A DNA stretch of 64,000 nucleotides from Escherichia coli (GCF_965641715.1 NZ_OZ282455.1), one strand, 5' to 3'. Shown: positions 35,104 through 51,878, counted from the first letter of the stretch. Translations and numbers: made by a program. The notes: generated by a model not told the origin, from the sequence alone.

Positions 35104-35874
35104 ATGAACAAAACGCTGAATGCACTGGTTTGTCGTCACGCCCGTAACCTGCTGCTGGCGCAGGGCTGGCCGGAAGAGACGGATGTTGACCAGCGAAATC
35201 CGAACTATCCGGGCTGGATCAGCATTTACGTGCGGCTGGATGCGCCCCGGCTGGCGACGTTACTTATCAACCGTCACGGCGGCGTACTGCCGCCGCTCCT
35301 GGCCTCCGCCATTCAGAGACTGACCGGAACCGGGGCGGAACTGGTACTGTCCGGCAGTCAGTGGCAATCGCTGCCGGTACTTCCGGCAGACGGAACGCAG
35401 GTGTCTTTCCCGTATGCCGGAGAATGGCTGACCGAAGACGAAATCAGGGCTGTTCTTGATGCGGTGCACGATGCGGTACGAAGCATCTGTTACCAGGTGG
35501 CAGACGATGCGCGGCGTATCCGTGCGGCGCTGACCACCACCGGTCAGACGTTGCTGACCCGCCAGACGCGCCGCTTTCGCCTGGTCGTGAAGGAAAGCGA
35601 TCACCCCTGCTGGCTCGATGAAGATGACGAAAACCTGCCCGTGGTGCTCGATGCCATCGTGAACCGGGGAGCACGTTTTTCGTCGGTGGAAATGTACCTG
35701 GTCAGCGATTGTATTGAGCATATCCTGTCCAGTGGGCTGGCCTGCGATGTGCTGCGTATACCTGATGAATCGCCCCGCCGCTGGTTTGACCGTGGTGTTC
35801 TGCGGGAGGTGGTCCGGGAAGCCCGGACCGAAATCCGCAGCATGGCGGATGCCCTGGCAAAAATCCGGAAATGA
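35104..35874 (+). CDS. hypothetical protein
   Basis: ORF from MNKTLNALV...; 256 aa. Confidence 0.4.
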
Positions 35875-35930
35875 TGACACTGGCGGGGAAAATCCCCGCC
35901 TTTTTCCTGCCGGTCCCCGGACAGAGCACA

Positions 35931-36280
35931 AAGGAAGTCGCCGCCGGCTCCGCTTTACCCGGCCATGCAGAGCATGGCCTTGTGGTTTTCAGTTATGTGG
36001 CCTCAGCGTCGTGTGCGGGCTGTGCCGTGCCTCCATCTTAGCCGGGCTGGCGTTGATGCAAGGGTACGCTTCGCCGCTGCGGTCACCCGGTCCCTCCTTC
36101 CCGTCTGCCGTGATTTTCCGGTCGTTCACCCGCTCAGATTTCGCGGTCTCACCCTCCAACTCCCGCCAGCCGTGTGCGTCAGGCTGCGGCTTCCCTTGCG
36201 CCCCTGCATCCCCGCCTTATCGCCCGGCTTTTCTGGAGGCACGGCACCGCCCGGTGTCGCGGAATATGTGAACAACGGAG
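35931..36280. repeat. leading-region dispersed repeat, family A copy 1 (ssDNA-promoter/Frpo-like candidate)
   Basis: ~350 bp nearly identical to 42876-43225; GC-rich with internal hairpins; immediately upstream of klcA. Confidence 0.6.
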
Positions 36281-37574: not shown

Positions 37575-38075
37575 CTTCGGCTCCCGGCTGCCTGGCGGCA
37601 TCCGGTCGTCAGGCCCGACTCCGACAGGCAGCTGCTGGCGCACCCGCCAGTCTCCGCCGAACCCGCTGGCGCGGTTTCGGGCTGCCGCTACGGTCCGATG
37701 CGTGAAAACCCGGCTTGCAGCGACCGTTCCGGTCGCGCCGCCCCTGTCGCGCCGTGACCTGCGCTCCCTGCACACCTGACGGTGTGTGAGGAAACTGCGC
37801 CTGATGGCGCAGCAGTCTTCCCTCCTGCCGCCACCCCTGCGGCCTGTTTCCCGCTGTGGACTTTCCGGGGGGCAGACGTAACCCCCTCCCGTTCCATCTG
37901 TCCAGGGTGAGATGCACCGGCCACAAAATTTTTAGCCATGAACCCGGCTAAAAATTTTGCGTCCGCCCCCGGACAGCTGTCCCGTGAGGCGGTAAACGGG
38001 CCCCCATCGGAAAGGTCCACTGCGGGGAGAAACCCCTGTGAAGTGGACGGCAGGAGGAGCTTTCGCTCCTCTGAA
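37575..38075. repeat. leading-region dispersed repeat, family B copy 1 (ssDNA-promoter/Frpo-like candidate)
   Basis: ~500 bp highly similar to 43919-44415 and partly to 46950-47295; immediately upstream of ssb. Confidence 0.6.
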
Positions 38076-43918: not shown

Positions 43919-44415
43919 CTTCGGCTCCCGGCTGCCTGGCGGCATCCGGTCGTCAGGCCCGACTCCGACAGGCAGCTGCTGGCGCACCCGCCAGTCTCCG
44001 CCGAACCCGCTGGCGCGGTTTCGGGCTGCCGCTACGGTCCGATGTCTGAAAAACCAGGCTTGCAGCGACCGTTCCGGTCGCGCCGCCCCTGTCGCGCCGG
44101 AAACGGCGCTCCCTGCACACCTGACGGTGTGTAAGGCCACTGCGCCTGATGGCGCAGTCAACCCTTCCGCCGCCACCCCTGCGGCCTGTTTCCCGCTGTG
44201 GACTTTCCGGGGGCTGGAGTAACCACATCCCGTTTCAGCAGTCTAGGGGAAGATATACCGTCCACAAAATTTTTAGCCATAAACCCGGCAAAAAATTTTG
44301 CGTCCGCCCCCGGACAGCTGCCCCGTGACGTGGTGACGGACGCCCCATCGGAAAGGTCCACTGCGGGGAGAAACCCCGAAGAAGTGGACGGCAGAAGGGG
44401 CTTTCGCCCCTCCGG
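43919..44415. repeat. leading-region dispersed repeat, family B copy 2
   Basis: Highly similar to 37575-38075; upstream of ORF 44466. Confidence 0.6.
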
Positions 44416-47329: not shown

Positions 47330-48181
47330 GTGATGAATCAGACTTTACCCACTGCTGACCTGAATACTGCCGGCACGACAGATGTTATTCCGTCTGTGGC
47401 TATCGACCGCATCATCGCGCAGCGTAACGAAGGTATTGCACTGTTCATGCAGGCGATGGAATGCCTGGCGACAGCGCGCAAGATTCTGCTCGATGCGTCA
47501 GGTGATATTTTTCTTTACGGGTTTGAAGACTGCGTGACTGATTCCGTTCGTCGCATAGATAAACCGGAAGAAGCGAAAAGGAATATCACCCGTCTTGCCG
47601 ACCGGAAAATCTGGGATCGCCTGATGACAGATACGGGCATGTACACCTTCATGAGTTCATGCCAGCGTGATGAGTGGAACAGCCAGCTGATGAGCGACAC
47701 CTGTCCTGAAATCACCCTGGACAATGTACTGGCAACATTCCGCCATCTGAATGCCTGCAAGATGCAGACATTTGAACAGGGACTGATTGATGTCTACCGG
47801 AAATTGTCATGGGATTACAGAACCAATAATCCCTGCCGTCTGGGTAAGAAAATCATTATTGAAAACCTGCTGTACCGCTGGAGTAACGGGCGTGTGACGC
47901 TGGACTGCAGCGGACGGGAGGCACTGGATGACCTGGTACGTCCGTTTTATCTGCTGGAGGGGCGCAACGTTCCTGACTTCAGGAACAGTATCGGGGCGCA
48001 GTATGGTGAATTTCTCGGGAACGGCGACAATGTCGGTAAGCTGTTAGAAGGGGAATATTTTACGGTGCGTGGCTACCAGAAAGGGACCGTACACATTGTC
48101 TTTAAGCGTTCTGACCTTGTTGAAAAACTGAATGATATTATTGCACGGCATTATCCAGGTGCATTGCCGCCACGAGTCTGA
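47330..48181 (+). CDS. hypothetical leading-region protein (first ORF inward of oriT)
   Basis: 283-aa ORF preceded by RBS GAGGAG. Confidence 0.4.
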   Translation: MMNQTLPTADLNTAGTTDVIPSVAIDRIIAQRNEGIALFMQAMECLATARKILLDASGDIFLYGFEDCVTDSVRRIDKPEEAKRNITRLADRKIWDRLMTDTGMYTFMSSCQRDEWNSQLMSDTCPEITLDNVLATFRHLNACKMQTFEQGLIDVYRKLSWDYRTNNPCRLGKKIIIENLLYRWSNGRVTLDCSGREALDDLVRPFYLLEGRNVPDFRNSIGAQYGEFLGNGDNVGKLLEGEYFTVRGYQKGTVHIVFKRSDLVEKLNDIIARHYPGALPPRV

Positions 48182-48266
48182 TTAAACAGAAAAGCCCTGG
48201 TATTTATGCCGGGGCTTTTTTTTCTGTAATCATCATAATCTCAGAACACGATGTGACATTGTCACA

Positions 48267-48608
48267 TCAATTGTTGTTCATATCGATGCCATCTTTCCTG
48301 CCTGAATCTGTCTTTTTAGGTGCTGTTTTAGAGGAAGAACGGCGGGATGGTTTTTTCGATTCTGCTTCCCGAATAATGTCACGAAGTGCCTTCTCTCCTA
48401 CTTCATACCCTGCATTTTTGAGCGTGTCACGAACATCTGCCAGTGTATAACCCTTTGTCCTTACCAGGACAATAATGTCATCACGAATGGCATCAAGAAA
48501 ATCACGCAATGTTTTCCGTTGAGCGGTGAGATCTGGCAATTCCGATAAAGCAGCTTTTGCCAGCTGGATGTCATCATCTGAGTAAAATTTTTTAGAAGCC
48601 ATTGGCAC
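48267..48608 (-). CDS. hypothetical basic protein (possible DNA-binding)
   Basis: 113 aa, Lys/Arg/Ser-rich C-terminal tail; adjacent to oriT. Confidence 0.35.
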   Translation of the reverse strand: MPMASKKFYSDDDIQLAKAALSELPDLTAQRKTLRDFLDAIRDDIIVLVRTKGYTLADVRDTLKNAGYEVGEKALRDIIREAESKKPSRRSSSKTAPKKTDSGRKDGIDMNNN

Positions 48609-48639
48609 TTTCTCTCCGTTTCATGTTGAAGTCTGATTT

Positions 48640-48835
48640 TATCATCAAAAACTGACTCCTGGCAGGGCTGCGCCCTGCCTCTGCCGTCTGCATAAGACTA
48701 TGATGCACAAAAATAACAGGCTATAATGGCCTGAAAAACGGGACAGGATGTGCAATTGTAATACCGTCACACGCGACGCTATTACAATTGCCATCTGGTC
48801 AGGGCTTCGCCCCGACACCCCGTAAGGAGCCTGAA
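48640..48835. other. origin of transfer (IncI1-type oriT) region
   Basis: Immediately upstream of nikA; inverted repeats GGCAGGGC-TG-CGCCCTGCC (48661-48679) and perfect 12-bp IR GCAATTGTAATA(48752-48763)/TATTACAATTGC(48780-48791). Confidence 0.7.
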
Positions 48836-49168
48836 GTGAGTGATAGTGCGGTAAGAAAGAAAAGTGAGGTACGGCAAAAGACAGTTGTCAGGACACTCAG
48901 ATTCTCTCCTGTTGAGGATGAAACCATCAGGAAAAAAGCTGAAGATTCCGGACTTACTGTATCTGCTTACATCCGAAATGCAGCACTGAATAAGCGAATT
49001 AACTCCCGTACAGATGATGCTTTTCTGAAGGAGTTAATGAGACTGGGAAGGATGCAGAAGCATCTGTTTGTTCAGGGAAAAAGAACCGGTGACAAGGAAT
49101 ACGCAGAAGTGCTTGTTGCCATAACCGAACTTACAAATACATTGCGTAAACAGTTAATGGAAGGTTGA
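48836..49168 (+). CDS. nikA: relaxosome accessory protein NikA (RHH)
   Basis: GTG start after AAGGAG; VSDSAVRKKSEVRQKTVVRTLRFSPVEDETIRKKAEDSGLTVSAYIRNAAL... matches R64 NikA. Confidence 0.9.
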   Translation: MSDSAVRKKSEVRQKTVVRTLRFSPVEDETIRKKAEDSGLTVSAYIRNAALNKRINSRTDDAFLKELMRLGRMQKHLFVQGKRTGDKEYAEVLVAITELTNTLRKQLMEG

Positions 49169-49178
49169 GGATTCTCCG

Positions 49179-51878
49179 GTGAATGCAGTCATTCCAAAAA
49201 AGAGAAGGGACGGCAAGTCTTCGTTCGAAGACCTGGTATCCTACGTCTCTGTCCGGGATGACATGACCGATGAGGAACTGGATTTATCTTCTTCTTCGCA
49301 GGCTGAACAACCGCACCGAAGCCGTTTCAGTCGCCTTGTTGATTATGCGACACGTCTTCGAAATGAGTCATTCGTGGCGCTGGTTGATGTCATGAAGGAC
49401 GGCTGCGAATGGGTCAACTTTTATGGTGTCACCTGCTTTCATAACTGTACTTCTCTTGAAACTGCCGCTGCAGATATGGAGTACATTGCCCGGCAGGCAC
49501 ACTATGCAAAAGATGACACTGATCCTGTTTTTCACTACATTCTTTCCTGGCAGTCACATGAAAGCCCGCGTCCGGAACAGATTTATGACAGTGTACGTCA
49601 TACGCTGAAATCACTCGGCCTTGCCGACCATCAGTATGTCTCTGCCGTGCATACTGATACAGATAATCTGCACGTCCATGTGGCTGTTAACCGGGTACAC
49701 CCTGAAACGGGTTATCTGAACCGGTTATCCTGGAGTCAGGAAAAACTCAGTCGTGCCTGCCGTGAGCTTGAACTGAAGCATGGTTTTGCTCCGGATAACG
49801 GTTGCTGGGTCCATGCACCGGGAAATCGTATCGTTCGCAAAACCGCCGTTGAACGTGATCGCCAGAACGCGTGGACACGCGGGAAAAAACAAACTTTTCG
49901 CGAGTATGTCGCGCAGACAGCGGTCGCTGGTTTACGCAGTGAACCTGTAAATGACTGGTTATCCCTGCATCGTCGTCTTGCGGAAGATGGTCTGTACCTG
50001 TCTCAGATGGACGGAAAATTTCTGGTGATGGATGGCTGGGATCGCAACAGGGAAGGTGTACAGCTTGACTCGTTTGGTCCCTCCTGGTGTGCAGAAAAAC
50101 TCATGAAAAAAATGGGTGACTACACGCCAGTACCAAAAGACATTTTCAGCCAGGTGGAAGCACCAGGACGCTATAATCCGCACTTCATTGCCGCTGATGT
50201 TCGCCCGGAAAAAATCGCTGAAACAGAAAGTCTGCAGCAGTATGCCTGTCGTCATCTTGGAGAACGTCTGCCGGAAATGGCACGGGAAGGACGGCTGGAA
50301 AACTGCCAAGCTATTCACCGCACACTGGCTGAAGCGGGATTATGGATGCGTGTTCAGCATGGTCACCTGGTTATCTGTGACGGTTATGATCATAACCAGA
50401 CTCCCGTTCGTGCTGACAGCGTATGGTCGCTGCTGACGCTCGACAATGTGAATCAACTCGATGGTGGCTGGCAGCCTGTACCAACAGATATTTTCCGCCA
50501 GGTTACGCCAACAGAACGCTTCCGTGGTCGTCGTATGGAGAGCTGTCCTGCGACCGATAAAGAATGGCACCGTATGCGTACAGGCACGGGGCCGCAGGGG
50601 GCTATCAAACGCGAACTGTTTTCTGACAAAGAAAGTCTGTGGGGATACAGCATCAGCCATTGTAGCCCTCAGATTGAAGAAATGATCACACAGGGTGAGT
50701 TTACCTGGCAGCGTTGTCATGAGCTGTTTGCACAACAGGGACTGATGCTACAGAAACAACATCACGGGCTTGTTGTCGTTGATGCCTTTAATCATGAGCA
50801 AACGCCGGTGAAGGCCAGCAGCATTCATCCTGATCTGACACTGGGGCGTGCAGAGCCACAGGCCGGACCTTTTGTGAGTGCCCCAGCAGATTTGTTTGAC
50901 AGGGTGCAACCTGAAAGTCGCTATAACCCGGAGCTGGCTGTCAGTGACAGGTACGGGGTCAGCAGTAAACGTGACCCAATGCTGCGCCGGCAGCGACGTA
51001 AAGCCAGAGCTGAGGCCCGTGCTGACCTGCGTGCCCGCTATCTGGCATGGCGTGAACAATGGCGTAAACCAGATCTGCGTTATGGGGAACGTTGTCGGGA
51101 AATTCATCAGGCATGCCGTCTGCGGAAGTCACACATTCGTGCGCAGTACGATGATCCGGCATTACGTAAGCTGCATTATCACATTGCAGAAGTTCAGCGA
51201 ATGCAGGCATTGATCAGGCTGAAAGAAGACATCAGGGATGAGCGACAGAAACTTATTGCTGACGGGAAGTGGTATCCACCCTCTTACCGTCAGTGGGTCG
51301 AAACTCAGGCTGCTCAGGGAGACAGGGCTGCTGTATCGCAGCTGAGAGGCTGGGATTATCGCGATCGCCGTAAAGACAGGTCACGCACAACGACGACAGA
51401 CCGCTGTGTCGTGCTTTGTGAACCGGGCGGAACGCCGGTATACGGTAATACCGGTGATCTCGAGGCCCGTCTGCAGAAGAACGGGAGTGTTCGTTTCCGT
51501 GACCGTCGGACGGGAGAGTTTGTCTGTACGGATTATGGTGACAGGGTTGTTTTCCGTAATCACCATGACCGCAATGCGCTGGCAGATAAACTGGATTTGA
51601 TTGCACCGGTATTATTCGGGCGTGATCCTCGCATGGGTTTTGAACCAGAAGGAAACGACAAACAATTTAACCAGGTCTTTGCTGAAATGGTTGCCTGGCA
51701 TAATGTGACAGGCCGTACCGGTCACGAAGACTACAGGATTACGCGACCGGACGTGGATCATCACCGTGAAGGAAGTGAACGCTACTACCGCGATTATATC
51801 GCGGCGAACAGCAACGATGACGCATCACTGCCTCCGCCGGAGCAGGATAAACGCTGGGAACCGCCTTCTCCAGGTTAA
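49179..51878 (+). CDS. nikB: relaxase NikB (MOB-P family)
   Basis: 899 aa; N-terminal relaxase motifs ...YILSWQSHESP... and HTDTDNLHVHVAVNRVH (3-His motif). Confidence 0.92.
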   Translation: MNAVIPKKRRDGKSSFEDLVSYVSVRDDMTDEELDLSSSSQAEQPHRSRFSRLVDYATRLRNESFVALVDVMKDGCEWVNFYGVTCFHNCTSLETAAADMEYIARQAHYAKDDTDPVFHYILSWQSHESPRPEQIYDSVRHTLKSLGLADHQYVSAVHTDTDNLHVHVAVNRVHPETGYLNRLSWSQEKLSRACRELELKHGFAPDNGCWVHAPGNRIVRKTAVERDRQNAWTRGKKQTFREYVAQTAVAGLRSEPVNDWLSLHRRLAEDGLYLSQMDGKFLVMDGWDRNREGVQLDSFGPSWCAEKLMKKMGDYTPVPKDIFSQVEAPGRYNPHFIAADVRPEKIAETESLQQYACRHLGERLPEMAREGRLENCQAIHRTLAEAGLWMRVQHGHLVICDGYDHNQTPVRADSVWSLLTLDNVNQLDGGWQPVPTDIFRQVTPTERFRGRRMESCPATDKEWHRMRTGTGPQGAIKRELFSDKESLWGYSISHCSPQIEEMITQGEFTWQRCHELFAQQGLMLQKQHHGLVVVDAFNHEQTPVKASSIHPDLTLGRAEPQAGPFVSAPADLFDRVQPESRYNPELAVSDRYGVSSKRDPMLRRQRRKARAEARADLRARYLAWREQWRKPDLRYGERCREIHQACRLRKSHIRAQYDDPALRKLHYHIAEVQRMQALIRLKEDIRDERQKLIADGKWYPPSYRQWVETQAAQGDRAAVSQLRGWDYRDRRKDRSRTTTTDRCVVLCEPGGTPVYGNTGDLEARLQKNGSVRFRDRRTGEFVCTDYGDRVVFRNHHDRNALADKLDLIAPVLFGRDPRMGFEPEGNDKQFNQVFAEMVAWHNVTGRTGHEDYRITRPDVDHHREGSERYYRDYIAANSNDDASLPPPEQDKRWEPPSPG

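What the first reader, a model, noticed from the sequence alone, without database searches (positions are those of the whole stretch)
48640..48835. oriT with two inverted-repeat elements immediately upstream of nikA
GGCAGGGC-TG-CGCCCTGCC (48661-48679) and the perfect 12-bp inverted repeat GCAATTGTAATA ... TATTACAATTGC (48752-48791) lie within 90 bp of the nikA RBS, consistent with the NikA binding and nick region of IncI1 oriT. The leading region extends from here towards lower coordinates.
Basis: partly seen in the sequence, partly recalled or inferred. Interest (0 to 1): 0.3.

Follow-up and report, generated by a model that had tools for sequence, protein, structure and literature searches.

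The report
Known IncI1 plasmid transfer origin

Summary
Both inverted repeats are in the sequence at the stated coordinates. The locus is the known IncI1 oriT. Window 48560-48900 is 100% identical to ColIb-P9. It is identical to R64 from 48733 into nikA, and NikA is 100% identical to R64 NikA.

The functional origin is about 83 bp, at 48739-48821. It contains:
- the invariant nick region, ACATCCTG|T on the minus strand, with the nick inferred between 48744 and 48743;
- the 17-bp inverted repeat with one mismatch (48752-48768 / 48775-48791), which starts 8 nt from the nick.

It is outside the oriT mapped in pESBL. About 1,750 plasmid records carry the short oriT module without the leading-side sequence that holds it. 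It is still conserved in I-complex plasmids, with one compensatory change, and overlaps the -35 of a predicted promoter for the divergent gene yggA. Its role is not established.

Verdict: already known, low interest.

The parts
48739..48821 (.). Functional oriT module of about 83 bp: nick region, 17-bp inverted repeat and small inverted repeat.
   Evidence: It equals the pESBL oriT interval 70354-70436 (PMC4288162), mapped colinearly with no indels. It is also the only part shared with 1.5-6 kb Col-type plasmids. From 48733 on it is 100% identical to R64.
48739..48751 (-). Nick region. The minus strand reads 5'-ACATCCTG|TCCCG-3', with the nick inferred between 48744 and 48743. The 5' end at T48743 would be led into the recipient towards lower coordinates.
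   Evidence: The segment is 100% identical in all five aligned I-complex relatives, and its core is invariant in 20 diverse oriTs. It matches the nic sequence ACATCTTG|T of pCTX-M3, described as similar to IncI1 (PMC8125031). The position is inferred by homology; no nick was mapped here.
48752..48768 (.). Nick-proximal arm of the 17-bp inverted repeat. I identify it with 'repeat A', the NikA-binding arm, from my recollection of Furuya & Komano 1995/1997. It starts 8 nt from the nick.
   Evidence: I1. PMC4743918 names the nick region plus repeat A as the R64 oriT core and marks a NikA-binding site. NikA here is 100% identical to R64 NikA. Binding was not tested here.
48775..48791 (.). Distal arm of the 17-bp inverted repeat (repeat B), with one mismatch (C48764 / C48779).
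   Evidence: Covariation with the proximal arm: 9 of 14 pairs change on both sides across 20 oriTs, and 0 of 500 shuffles reach the observed values. pESBL carries a compensatory C48753T / G48790A pair.
48798..48816 (.). Small inverted repeat GTCAGGGC-ttc-GCCCCGAC, taken to be the '8-bp repeat' of R64 oriT. It has an A·C mismatch at 48801 / 48813.
   Evidence: the sequence is nearly invariant (97% of cells paired) and the A·C mismatch is present in 20 of 20 sequences. PMC3817090 places an 8-bp repeat set inside the minimal oriT next to nikA.
48661..48679 (.). It lies outside the oriT module, 64-82 nt into the leading side.
   Evidence: I17. It is absent from the Col-type plasmids. The leading-side sequence is found only in about 2,030 I-complex-type records. 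An E. cloacae plasmid has the compensatory variant GGCAGTGC-tcc-GCACTGCC, with 84% identity in the hairpin against 45% and 32% in the flanks. It is 15/19 identical to the small repeat (D3, plus direct reading).
48636..48665 (-). Predicted sigma-70 promoter for yggA: -35 CTGCCA (48665-48660), an 18-nt spacer, and a TG-extended -10 TAAAAT (48641-48636). The -35 overlaps the left arm of the hairpin.
   Evidence: 9 of 12 matches, TG present. In the diverged E. cloacae plasmid, TGtTATGAT sits at the same 19-nt distance from the hairpin (direct reading). This is a prediction only.
48722..48727 (+). TATAAT, a possible -10 of the nikAB (oriT operon) promoter. It would read across the nick region into nikA. 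The -35 is poor.
   Evidence: Conserved in all six nikA-bearing intergenic regions aligned. It was not called by the promoter scan because no acceptable -35 is present. This is an inference.
48836..49168 (+). nikA: 110 aa, GTG start, RBS AAGGAG at 48824-48829. A ribbon-helix-helix relaxosome accessory protein.
   Evidence: Pfam PF21983 at 2e-22. NCBIfam MobA equivalog. PDB 2BA3 NikA at 7e-26. 100% identical to R64 NikA.
49179..51878 (+). nikB: 899 aa, MOBP-family relaxase.
   Evidence: Pfam Relaxase PF03432 at 5.5e-31. NCBIfam TraI/MobA(P) at 1.9e-124. It differs from R64 NikB at 4 residues.
48267..48602 (-). yggA: 111 aa, divergent from nikA and the first gene on the leading side. It is a homologue of pCTX-M3 Orf35.
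   Evidence: Named YggA in pESBL and not needed for transfer (PMC4288162). It is 38% identical over 73 aa to the IncL counterpart. Orf35 represses nikA, nikB and traH (PMC6112013).

Best explanation
The locus is the origin of transfer of an IncI1 (R64 / ColIb-P9-type, MOBP relaxase, MPF-I) conjugative plasmid. The cis-acting origin is the roughly 83-bp module 48739-48821.

Model of how it works. This is the established R64 / IncP-type model, inferred here by sequence identity. NikA (a ribbon-helix-helix protein) binds the nick-proximal arm of the 17-bp repeat (48752-48768) and positions the relaxase NikB. NikB cuts the minus strand 8 nt away, in ACATCCTG|T, between 48744 and 48743, and stays attached to the 5' end. 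That strand then enters the recipient 5'->3' towards lower coordinates: yggA first, then the ardA/psiB/ssb leading region, with nikAB entering last.

The complete 17-bp repeat and the small repeat (48798-48816) lie on the trailing side. They would form hairpins in the transferred single strand, where they are thought to serve recognition and rejoining at termination.

The GGCAGGGC hairpin at 48661-48679 is not part of this origin. Its most likely role (inferred, probability about 0.4) is as a promoter or operator element of the divergent yggA gene. YggA may be a repressor of nikAB, as its pCTX-M3 homologue Orf35 is.
For: Identity:
- 100% to ColIb-P9 and to more than 1,000 IncI1 plasmids over 48560-48900.
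- Identical to R64 except for one base at 48732 and one G in the upstream hairpin.
- NikA is 100% identical to R64 NikA, and NikB differs at 4 of 899 residues.
- The window is collinear with R64 over 29 kb at 97% identity.

Anatomy:
- Nick motif, 8-nt spacing, 17-bp repeat with one mismatch, and small repeat.

Boundaries:
- The pESBL oriT interval 70354-70436, which scored as required for transfer in Tn-seq, maps to 48739-48821.
- Col-type plasmids share only about 48734-48824.
- A pEC156 derivative with a 93-bp R64-type oriT, and no nikA or yggA, is mobilised by R64drd11 at 0.24-0.52.

Conservation:
- The nick region is 100% identical in the five aligned I-complex relatives, and its core is invariant in 20 diverse oriTs.
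- In the 17-bp repeat, 9 of 14 pairs show compensatory changes, with 0 of 500 shuffles reaching the observed values and slid controls at 31-39% paired against 83.5%.
- The single-strand fold of the transferred strand is -48 kcal/mol, z = -8.5.

Direction:
- Leading-region genes lie at lower coordinates on the + strand.

Hairpin:
- Conserved island with a compensatory change.
- Overlaps the predicted yggA -35.
- Orf35 deletion derepresses nikA 40-fold.
Against: Nothing here contradicts the oriT assignment. Three limits apply.

- No nicking, binding or transfer was measured on this sequence.
- The primary R64 papers (Furuya & Komano 1991-2003) could not be read. The nick position, the identification of 48752-48768 as the NikA-binding repeat A, and the termination role therefore rest on secondary citations and my recollection.
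- For the hairpin, the yggA promoter is only a consensus match. YggA has no recognisable DNA-binding fold. More distant yggA-bearing plasmids (Klebsiella, Serratia, IncL) have no comparable palindrome. The R64 record itself carries an imperfect version.
Confidence: 0.93

Rival explanations
1. One reading: the GGCAGGGC hairpin (48661-48679) is itself one of the two repeat elements of the IncI1 oriT and takes part in NikA binding or nicking.
For: It is a perfect GC-rich repeat near the nick. It is conserved in I-complex plasmids. It resembles the true small repeat, 15/19 identical (D3).
Against: It lies outside the 83-bp pESBL oriT interval, and outside the 85-94-bp minimal oriT described as immediately upstream of nikA. 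About 1,750 plasmid records carry the oriT module without the leading-side sequence, and one such plasmid is efficiently mobilised by R64. The R64 record has an imperfect copy. No NikA-type repeat sequence occurs there.
Confidence: 0.07
2. The upstream hairpin is an accessory relaxosome site on the leading side of the nick, comparable to the TraK-binding region of RP4 oriT. It would be bound by YggA or a host factor and would stimulate transfer without being essential, possibly pairing functionally with the similar small repeat on the other side of the nick.
For: The layout matches RP4: an oriT between divergent genes, with yggA in the position of traK (my knowledge of RP4; layout). The two similar hairpins sit 63-74 nt either side of the nick. 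The hairpin is a conserved island in a diverged relative.
Against: yggA insertions were neutral for pESBL transfer. The pCTX-M3 homologue inhibits rather than stimulates mobilisation. The similarity between the two hairpins is not kept in the E. cloacae plasmid.
Confidence: 0.2
3. The upstream hairpin is a transcription terminator or insulator separating the yggA and nikAB transcription units from transcription entering from the leading region.
For: It is a stable GC-rich stem-loop that forms in the predicted fold. It lies in an intergenic region between divergent genes.
Against: No T-run follows it on either strand, and the terminator scan did not call it. The genes are divergent, so no transcript needs to end here. 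The convergent yggA / DUF4942 gene pair already has its own terminator-like hairpin at 48250-48268.
Confidence: 0.08
4. The upstream hairpin has no function of its own. It is a chance or relic palindrome, for example an old duplication of the small repeat, kept only because the whole intergenic region is young and nearly clonal among I-complex plasmids.
For: The region is at least 95% identical in about 1,900 of 2,032 records, so conservation within I-complex plasmids says little. The window is generally hairpin-rich. R64 transfers with an imperfect copy, if its record is correct.
Against: In the one well-diverged relative the stem is kept by a two-sided change while the flanks fall to 32-45% identity. 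R64's deletion is unique among 1,723 records, so the perfect stem is the norm.
Confidence: 0.2

Closest known systems
oriT of IncI1 plasmid R64 (Komano, Furuya and co-workers) and of ColIb-P9
   Same: The sequence is identical across the whole functional origin: 100% to ColIb-P9, and 100% to R64 from 48733 to nikA. The nick motif, the 8-nt spacing, the 17-bp repeat with one mismatch, the small 8-bp repeat and the position directly upstream of nikA-nikB are all the same. NikA is identical.
   Different: Nothing of substance. Outside the origin, the R64 record lacks one G in the upstream hairpin and has C instead of T at 48732.
oriT of pESBL-EA11 (IncI1 plasmid of E. coli O104:H4; Tn-seq by Yamaichi et al., PMC4288162)
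   Same: The yggA-nikA intergenic region is colinear with no indels. Its annotated oriT, 70354-70436, corresponds to window 48739-48821. NikA is identical.
   Different: Three substitutions. Two of them form a compensatory pair in the 17-bp repeat (C48753T / G48790A). The third (A48655C) lies outside the repeats, on the leading side.
IncP (RP4) oriT and the MOBP nick-region family
   Same: ATCCTG-type nick sequence. An inverted repeat 8 nt from the nick, bound by a ribbon-helix-helix protein (NikA has a weak NCBIfam match to TraJ). The origin sits between divergent transcription units. This comparison rests on my knowledge of Furuya & Komano 1991 and Pansegrau & Lanka.
   Different: Different repeat sequences and different proteins. 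RP4 needs TraK on the leading side, whereas yggA is dispensable in pESBL.
oriT of IncL/M plasmids (pCTX-M3, pOXA-48)
   Same: The same order: yggA homologue (orf35), nick region (ACATCTTG|T), long repeat, GTCAGGGC...GCCCCGAC, then nikA. Cross-mobilisation with ColIb-P9 occurs at low frequency.
   Different: About 30% protein identity. The long repeat has a different sequence. There is no perfect GGCAGGGC-type hairpin on the leading side.
R64-type oriTs on small Col-like plasmids (pEC156, pKPN2, NTP16 / pCERC7 group)
   Same: They carry the same module of about 85 bp with an invariant nick region and small repeat. pEC156 derivatives are mobilised by R64drd11.
   Different: They lack the leading-side sequence, yggA and usually nikB. 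Some carry their own nikA of about 53% identity.

Membership tests
IncI1 (R64-type) oriT | Nick-region sequence ACATCCTG|T (IncP-type ATCCTG core) on the transferred strand | tested here: met
   The minus strand reads GCACATCCTGTCCCG at 48753-48739. The motif's core is invariant in 20 related oriTs. The nic consensus is cited from PMC8125031.
IncI1 (R64-type) oriT | 17-bp inverted repeat with one mismatch, its proximal arm 8 bp from the nick | tested here: met
   48752-48768 / 48775-48791, 94% complementary. Eight nucleotides (48744-48751) separate it from the inferred nick.
IncI1 (R64-type) oriT | A second, 8-bp inverted repeat inside the minimal oriT, between the 17-bp repeat and nikA | tested here: met
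GTCAGGGC / GCCCCGAC at 48798-48816. The description comes from PMC3817090.
IncI1 (R64-type) oriT | Location immediately upstream of nikA (RHH accessory protein) and nikB (MOBP relaxase) | tested here: met
   nikA at 48836-49168 and nikB at 49179-51878.
IncI1 (R64-type) oriT | Sequence identity to the experimentally characterised R64 / ColIb-P9 oriT | tested here: met
   100% from 48733 to nikA against R64. 100% over 48560-48900 against ColIb-P9.
IncI1 (R64-type) oriT | Works in cis: NikA/NikB-dependent nicking and mobilisation by an I-type transfer system | not testable with these tools
   Only indirect evidence is available. The near-identical pESBL interval is required for transfer, and a related 93-bp oriT is mobilised by R64drd11.
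IncI1 (R64-type) oriT: does the GGCAGGGC hairpin (48661-48679) belong to it? | Lies within the delimited minimal oriT and travels with it | tested here: not met
   It is outside 48739-48821. It is absent from the Col-type plasmids that carry the oriT module. The leading-side sequence occurs only in I-complex-type plasmids.
Intrinsic (rho-independent) terminator, considered for the GGCAGGGC hairpin | GC-rich stem-loop directly followed by a T-run | tested here: not met
   The terminator scan did not call it on either strand. The tails are TCTGCCGT (+) and AGGAGTCAG (-).
Known RNA families (Rfam) | Match to a curated covariance model over 48640-48835 | tested here: not met
   No match in the oriT region at E up to 1. 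There were only weak sub-threshold hits at 48150-48284.

The most novel reading that the evidence does not exclude
The conserved GGCAGGGC-tgc-GCCCTGCC palindrome on the leading side of the nick may be the operator of YggA, the IncI1 counterpart of the pCTX-M3 repressor Orf35. Binding there would overlap the yggA -35, 43-61 bp upstream of the putative nikAB -10. It would autoregulate yggA and set the level of NikA/NikB, and so the frequency of relaxosome formation. This would be an undescribed control point of IncI1 transfer lying next to, but outside, oriT.
Probability: 0.2. Interest if true: 0.35.

Novelty: already known. Interest (0 to 1): 0.1.

Why it matters
The finding correctly flags the transfer origin of a very common family of resistance plasmids, but that origin has been mapped and dissected since about 1990. 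This check adds precision. It gives the origin as 48739-48821 and the inferred nick as 48744|48743 on the minus strand. It places the true second repeat at 48798-48816.

Two things are of minor interest. The 17-bp repeat covaries on both arms, which supports selection for a hairpin and not only for a one-arm protein site. The conserved upstream palindrome next to yggA could be a regulatory site for nikAB expression.

Tried and rejected
1. I tried to read the primary R64 oriT papers (Furuya & Komano 1991, 1997, 2000, 2003) by DOI and PMC id. None is held, so the nick position and NikA-binding details rest on secondary sources and recollection.

2. A paper search for 'ATCCTG' in 'anywhere' mode returned only irrelevant hits.

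3. Terminator hypothesis for the upstream hairpin: not supported.

4. Rfam scan of 48100-49300: nothing at oriT.

5. YggA function:
- Pfam and NCBIfam gave no significant family.
- The AlphaFold model from 11 sequences was only moderate: pLDDT 69.6, pTM 0.41, five helices and a basic disordered tail.
- Foldseek against the PDB gave no hit below E = 0.27.
- So no DNA-binding fold could be shown. The PGAP name 'molybdopterin-guanine dinucleotide biosynthesis protein MobC' has no support from any family search here.

6. I looked for an equivalent leading-side palindrome in more distant nikA loci (Klebsiella, Pantoea, Serratia, IncL). The Klebsiella, Serratia and IncL loci have none. Pantoea has an unrelated 11-14-bp repeat at a similar position. 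A shared CCTGnCAGG motif between the window and pOXA-48 is not kept in closer relatives, so I treated it as chance.

7. Three neighbouring 8-bp hairpins at 35811-35979 are unrelated to each other and are not a repeat family.

Full report
**Observation**

- GGCAGGGC / GCCCTGCC lies at 48661-48668 / 48672-48679. It is perfect, with 8-bp arms and a 3-nt loop.
- GCAATTGTAATA / TATTACAATTGC is perfect and extends to a 17-nt repeat with one mismatch, 48752-48768 / 48775-48791.

Both exceed chance, but unequally. Shuffles of the window give 0.0003 perfect 12-bp repeats and 0.03 perfect 8-bp repeats per 196 bp. The real window carries about six times more 8-bp hairpins than its shuffles. The large repeat is therefore clearly non-random, and the small one is only suggestive on its own.

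The nikA RBS is at 48824-48829 and the GTG start at 48836, so the first hairpin ends about 145 bp from the RBS, not within 90 bp.

- A third repeat, GTCAGGGC-ttc-GCCCCGAC, lies at 48798-48816.
- The motif ACAGGATG lies at 48743-48750. On the minus strand this reads ACATCCTG|T.

**Identity of the locus**

Window 48560-48900 is 100% identical to ColIb-P9 (NC_002122) and to more than 1,000 IncI1 plasmids. Against R64 (NC_005014) it differs at two positions: T48732 is C in R64, and the R64 record lacks one G of the GGG at 48665-48667. From 48733 into nikA the sequence is identical to R64.

The flanking genes fit this.
- nikA (48836-49168, 110 aa) matches Pfam NikA-like and the solved NikA domain 2BA3, and is 100% identical to R64 NikA.
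- nikB (49179-51878, 899 aa) is a MOBP relaxase with four substitutions relative to R64.
- The window is collinear with R64 over 29 kb at 97% identity.
- trbC follows on the minus strand.

**Where the origin is**

Three independent lines give the same boundaries.

First, the literature available here describes the R64 minimal oriT as about 85-94 bp immediately upstream of nikA. It contains a 17-bp and an 8-bp repeat set, and its core is the nick region plus repeat A (PMC3817090; PMC4743918).

Second, the Tn-seq study of the IncI1 plasmid pESBL lists oriT at 70354-70436, scored as required for transfer. It lists YggA at 69882-70217 as not required (PMC4288162). pESBL aligns to the window with no indels at an offset of -21615, so that oriT interval is window 48739-48821.

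Third, natural variation agrees.
- A distant search with 48640-48835 finds 3,781 plasmid records, of which 2,015 cover at least 80% of the query.
- In the 1.5-6.6 kb Col-type plasmids listed, only query positions about 95-185 match, which is window 48734-48824.
- The leading-side 136 bp (48603-48738) is found in only 2,032 records, almost all of them large conjugative plasmids.
- In alignments, homology in these small plasmids starts at C(G/A)GGACAGG and stops after CCCGACACC.
- A pEC156 derivative carrying a 93-bp R64-type oriT is mobilised by R64drd11 at 0.24-0.52 relative efficiency. A derivative lacking its oriTs is not mobilised.

**Anatomy and conservation inside the origin**

I aligned 20 diverse oriTs: IncI1, IncK2/Z, IncI-gamma, an E. 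cloacae plasmid, Col-type plasmids, and MPF-I plasmids from Klebsiella, Pantoea and Serratia.

The nick region is the most conserved part. It is 100% identical in the five aligned I-complex relatives, and its core is invariant across all 20 oriTs.

The 17-bp repeat varies in sequence but keeps its pairing.
- Nine of 14 pairs change on both sides.
- 83.5% of cells are paired, against 31-39% when the partner column is slid.
- None of 500 shuffles reaches the observed values.

pESBL differs from the window at three positions of the intergenic region. Two of them are the compensatory pair C48753T / G48790A, although its NikA is identical.

By my recollection of the R64 work, NikA binds only the nick-proximal arm. 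If so, two-sided covariation argues that the hairpin itself is selected. That fits the reported role of the repeats in termination of transfer (Furuya & Komano 2000, recalled, not read here).

The small repeat behaves differently. Its sequence is nearly invariant, and an A·C mismatch (48801 / 48813) is present in all 20 sequences. This points to recognition of sequence or shape rather than simple pairing.

Folded as single-stranded DNA, the transferred strand from 48830 to 48640 gives -48 kcal/mol with z = -8.5, and all three hairpins form.

**Nick and polarity**

No nick was mapped here, so the position is inferred. The nic sequence of pCTX-M3 is given as ACATCTTG|T and described as similar to that of IncI1 plasmids (PMC8125031). 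The window's minus strand reads ACATCCTG|T, which places the cut between 48744 and 48743, 8 nt from the 17-bp repeat. That agrees with my recollection of the R64 mapping.

The minus strand would therefore leave 5'-first towards lower coordinates.

A pESI-like Salmonella Infantis megaplasmid keeps the trailing side of oriT. It loses similarity within a few bases of the inferred nick, next to an IS200/IS605 tnpB.

Among IncK2/Z and IncI-gamma plasmids the leading side is 95-100% identical to the window up to the nick, while the 17-bp repeat drops to about 60% identity and NikA to 60-67%. The NikA-plus-repeat module is thus exchanged as a unit, with a boundary at the nick.

**The GGCAGGGC hairpin**

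This hairpin lies 64-82 nt on the leading side of the nick and outside every delimitation of oriT given above. It is not random, however.

- In the one well-diverged relative with the same layout (an E. cloacae plasmid) it reads GGCAGTGC-tcc-GCACTGCC, a two-sided change that keeps all eight pairs. Identity there is 84%, against 45% and 32% in the flanks.
- R64's missing G is unique among 1,723 plasmid records, so it is either a private mutation or an old sequencing compression.
- The hairpin is 15/19 identical to the small repeat of oriT (D3), but that resemblance is not kept in the E. cloacae plasmid.
- The promoter scan finds one candidate on the minus strand: -35 CTGCCA (48665-48660, inside the hairpin's left arm), an 18-nt spacer, and a TG-extended -10 TAAAAT (48641-48636). 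It would serve yggA, whose ATG is at 48602.
- The E. cloacae plasmid has TGtTATGAT at the same 19-nt distance from its hairpin.

yggA insertions are neutral for pESBL transfer. Its pCTX-M3 homologue Orf35 (32% identity to YggA) represses the nikAB-tra operon. Deleting it raises nikA, nikB and traH transcripts 40-, 23- and 80-fold and raises mobilisation more than 200-fold, by an unknown mechanism (PMC6112013).

My best guess is therefore that the palindrome is a promoter or operator element of yggA, possibly the YggA binding site. This is an inference, not a result.
- YggA shows no known DNA-binding family.
- Its model is of moderate confidence, and no structural neighbour was significant.
- The more distant yggA-bearing plasmids examined (Klebsiella, Serratia, IncL) lack a comparable palindrome.

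A terminator role is not supported. There is no Rfam match at oriT.

A conserved TATAAT at 48722-48727 on the plus strand may be the -10 of the nikAB promoter reading across the nick region. It has no acceptable -35.

**Comparison and verdict**

Every defining feature of the R64-type oriT that can be checked by sequence is met. Function in cis cannot be tested with these tools. It is wrong about which small repeat belongs to the origin and about its distance from nikA. The feature is already known and interest is low. The only open point is the role of the conserved palindrome beside yggA.

Noticed in passing
window 48267-48602 (-), yggA: The first gene on the leading side, divergent from nikA, is named 'molybdopterin-guanine dinucleotide biosynthesis protein MobC' in many RefSeq records. 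No family search supports that name. It is a homologue of pCTX-M3 Orf35, a repressor of nikAB-tra, and is dispensable for pESBL transfer. The predicted structure is five helices with a basic tail and has no significant structural neighbour.
   Followed up: partly
R64 record NC_005014.1 at 66860-66914 (L017), equivalent to window 48665-48667: The R64 reference sequence lacks one G in the upstream hairpin. This variant is unique among 1,723 plasmid records that match the segment. It is probably a sequencing compression in a GC hairpin or a private mutation.
   Followed up: yes
L019 (CP052816.1, S. Infantis megaplasmid pN17S1598) at locus 700-783: This plasmid keeps the nick-to-nikA side of an I-complex-type oriT. 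It loses all similarity on the leading side within a few bases of the inferred nick, next to an IS200/IS605 tnpB. This looks like a rearrangement end at or near nic.
   Followed up: partly
window 48739-48838 compared with L003, L004, L005 (IncK2/Z, IncI-gamma): There is a mosaic boundary at the nick. The leading side is 95-100% identical to IncI1, while the 17-bp repeat (about 60%) and nikA (60-67% aa) are diverged. The NikA-plus-repeat specificity module appears to be swapped as a unit.
   Followed up: partly
window 48753 and 48790 compared with pESBL-EA11 (L024): Two of the three differences across the 236-bp intergenic region form a compensatory C-G to T-A change in the 17-bp repeat, although NikA is identical.
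   Followed up: yes
window 48801 / 48813: The A·C mismatch inside the small repeat of oriT is present in all 20 oriTs compared, including Pantoea, Serratia and Klebsiella plasmids. A conserved mismatch suggests a recognised distortion, not a plain stem.
   Followed up: partly
window 37575-38071 and 43919-44412: Two direct repeats of about 500 bp (about 90% identical by cross-match to R64) lie in the leading region. The first lies just upstream of the ssb homologue and the second just downstream of the ardA homologue, by mapping to the R64 annotation. They may correspond to the Frpo-containing repeats described for IncI plasmids in PMC3817090.
   Followed up: no
window 48250-48268: A perfect 8-bp hairpin, GATGTGAC-att-GTCACATC, with a T-rich tail sits between the convergent DUF4942 gene (47330-48181, +) and yggA. 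It is probably a shared terminator.
   Followed up: no
window 48717-48733: A short inverted repeat, CAGGC-tataatg-GCCTG, brackets the conserved TATAAT. On the minus strand it is followed by a T-run and is called terminator-like. It is weakened in R64 (T48732C) and in one IncK2/Z plasmid.
   Followed up: no
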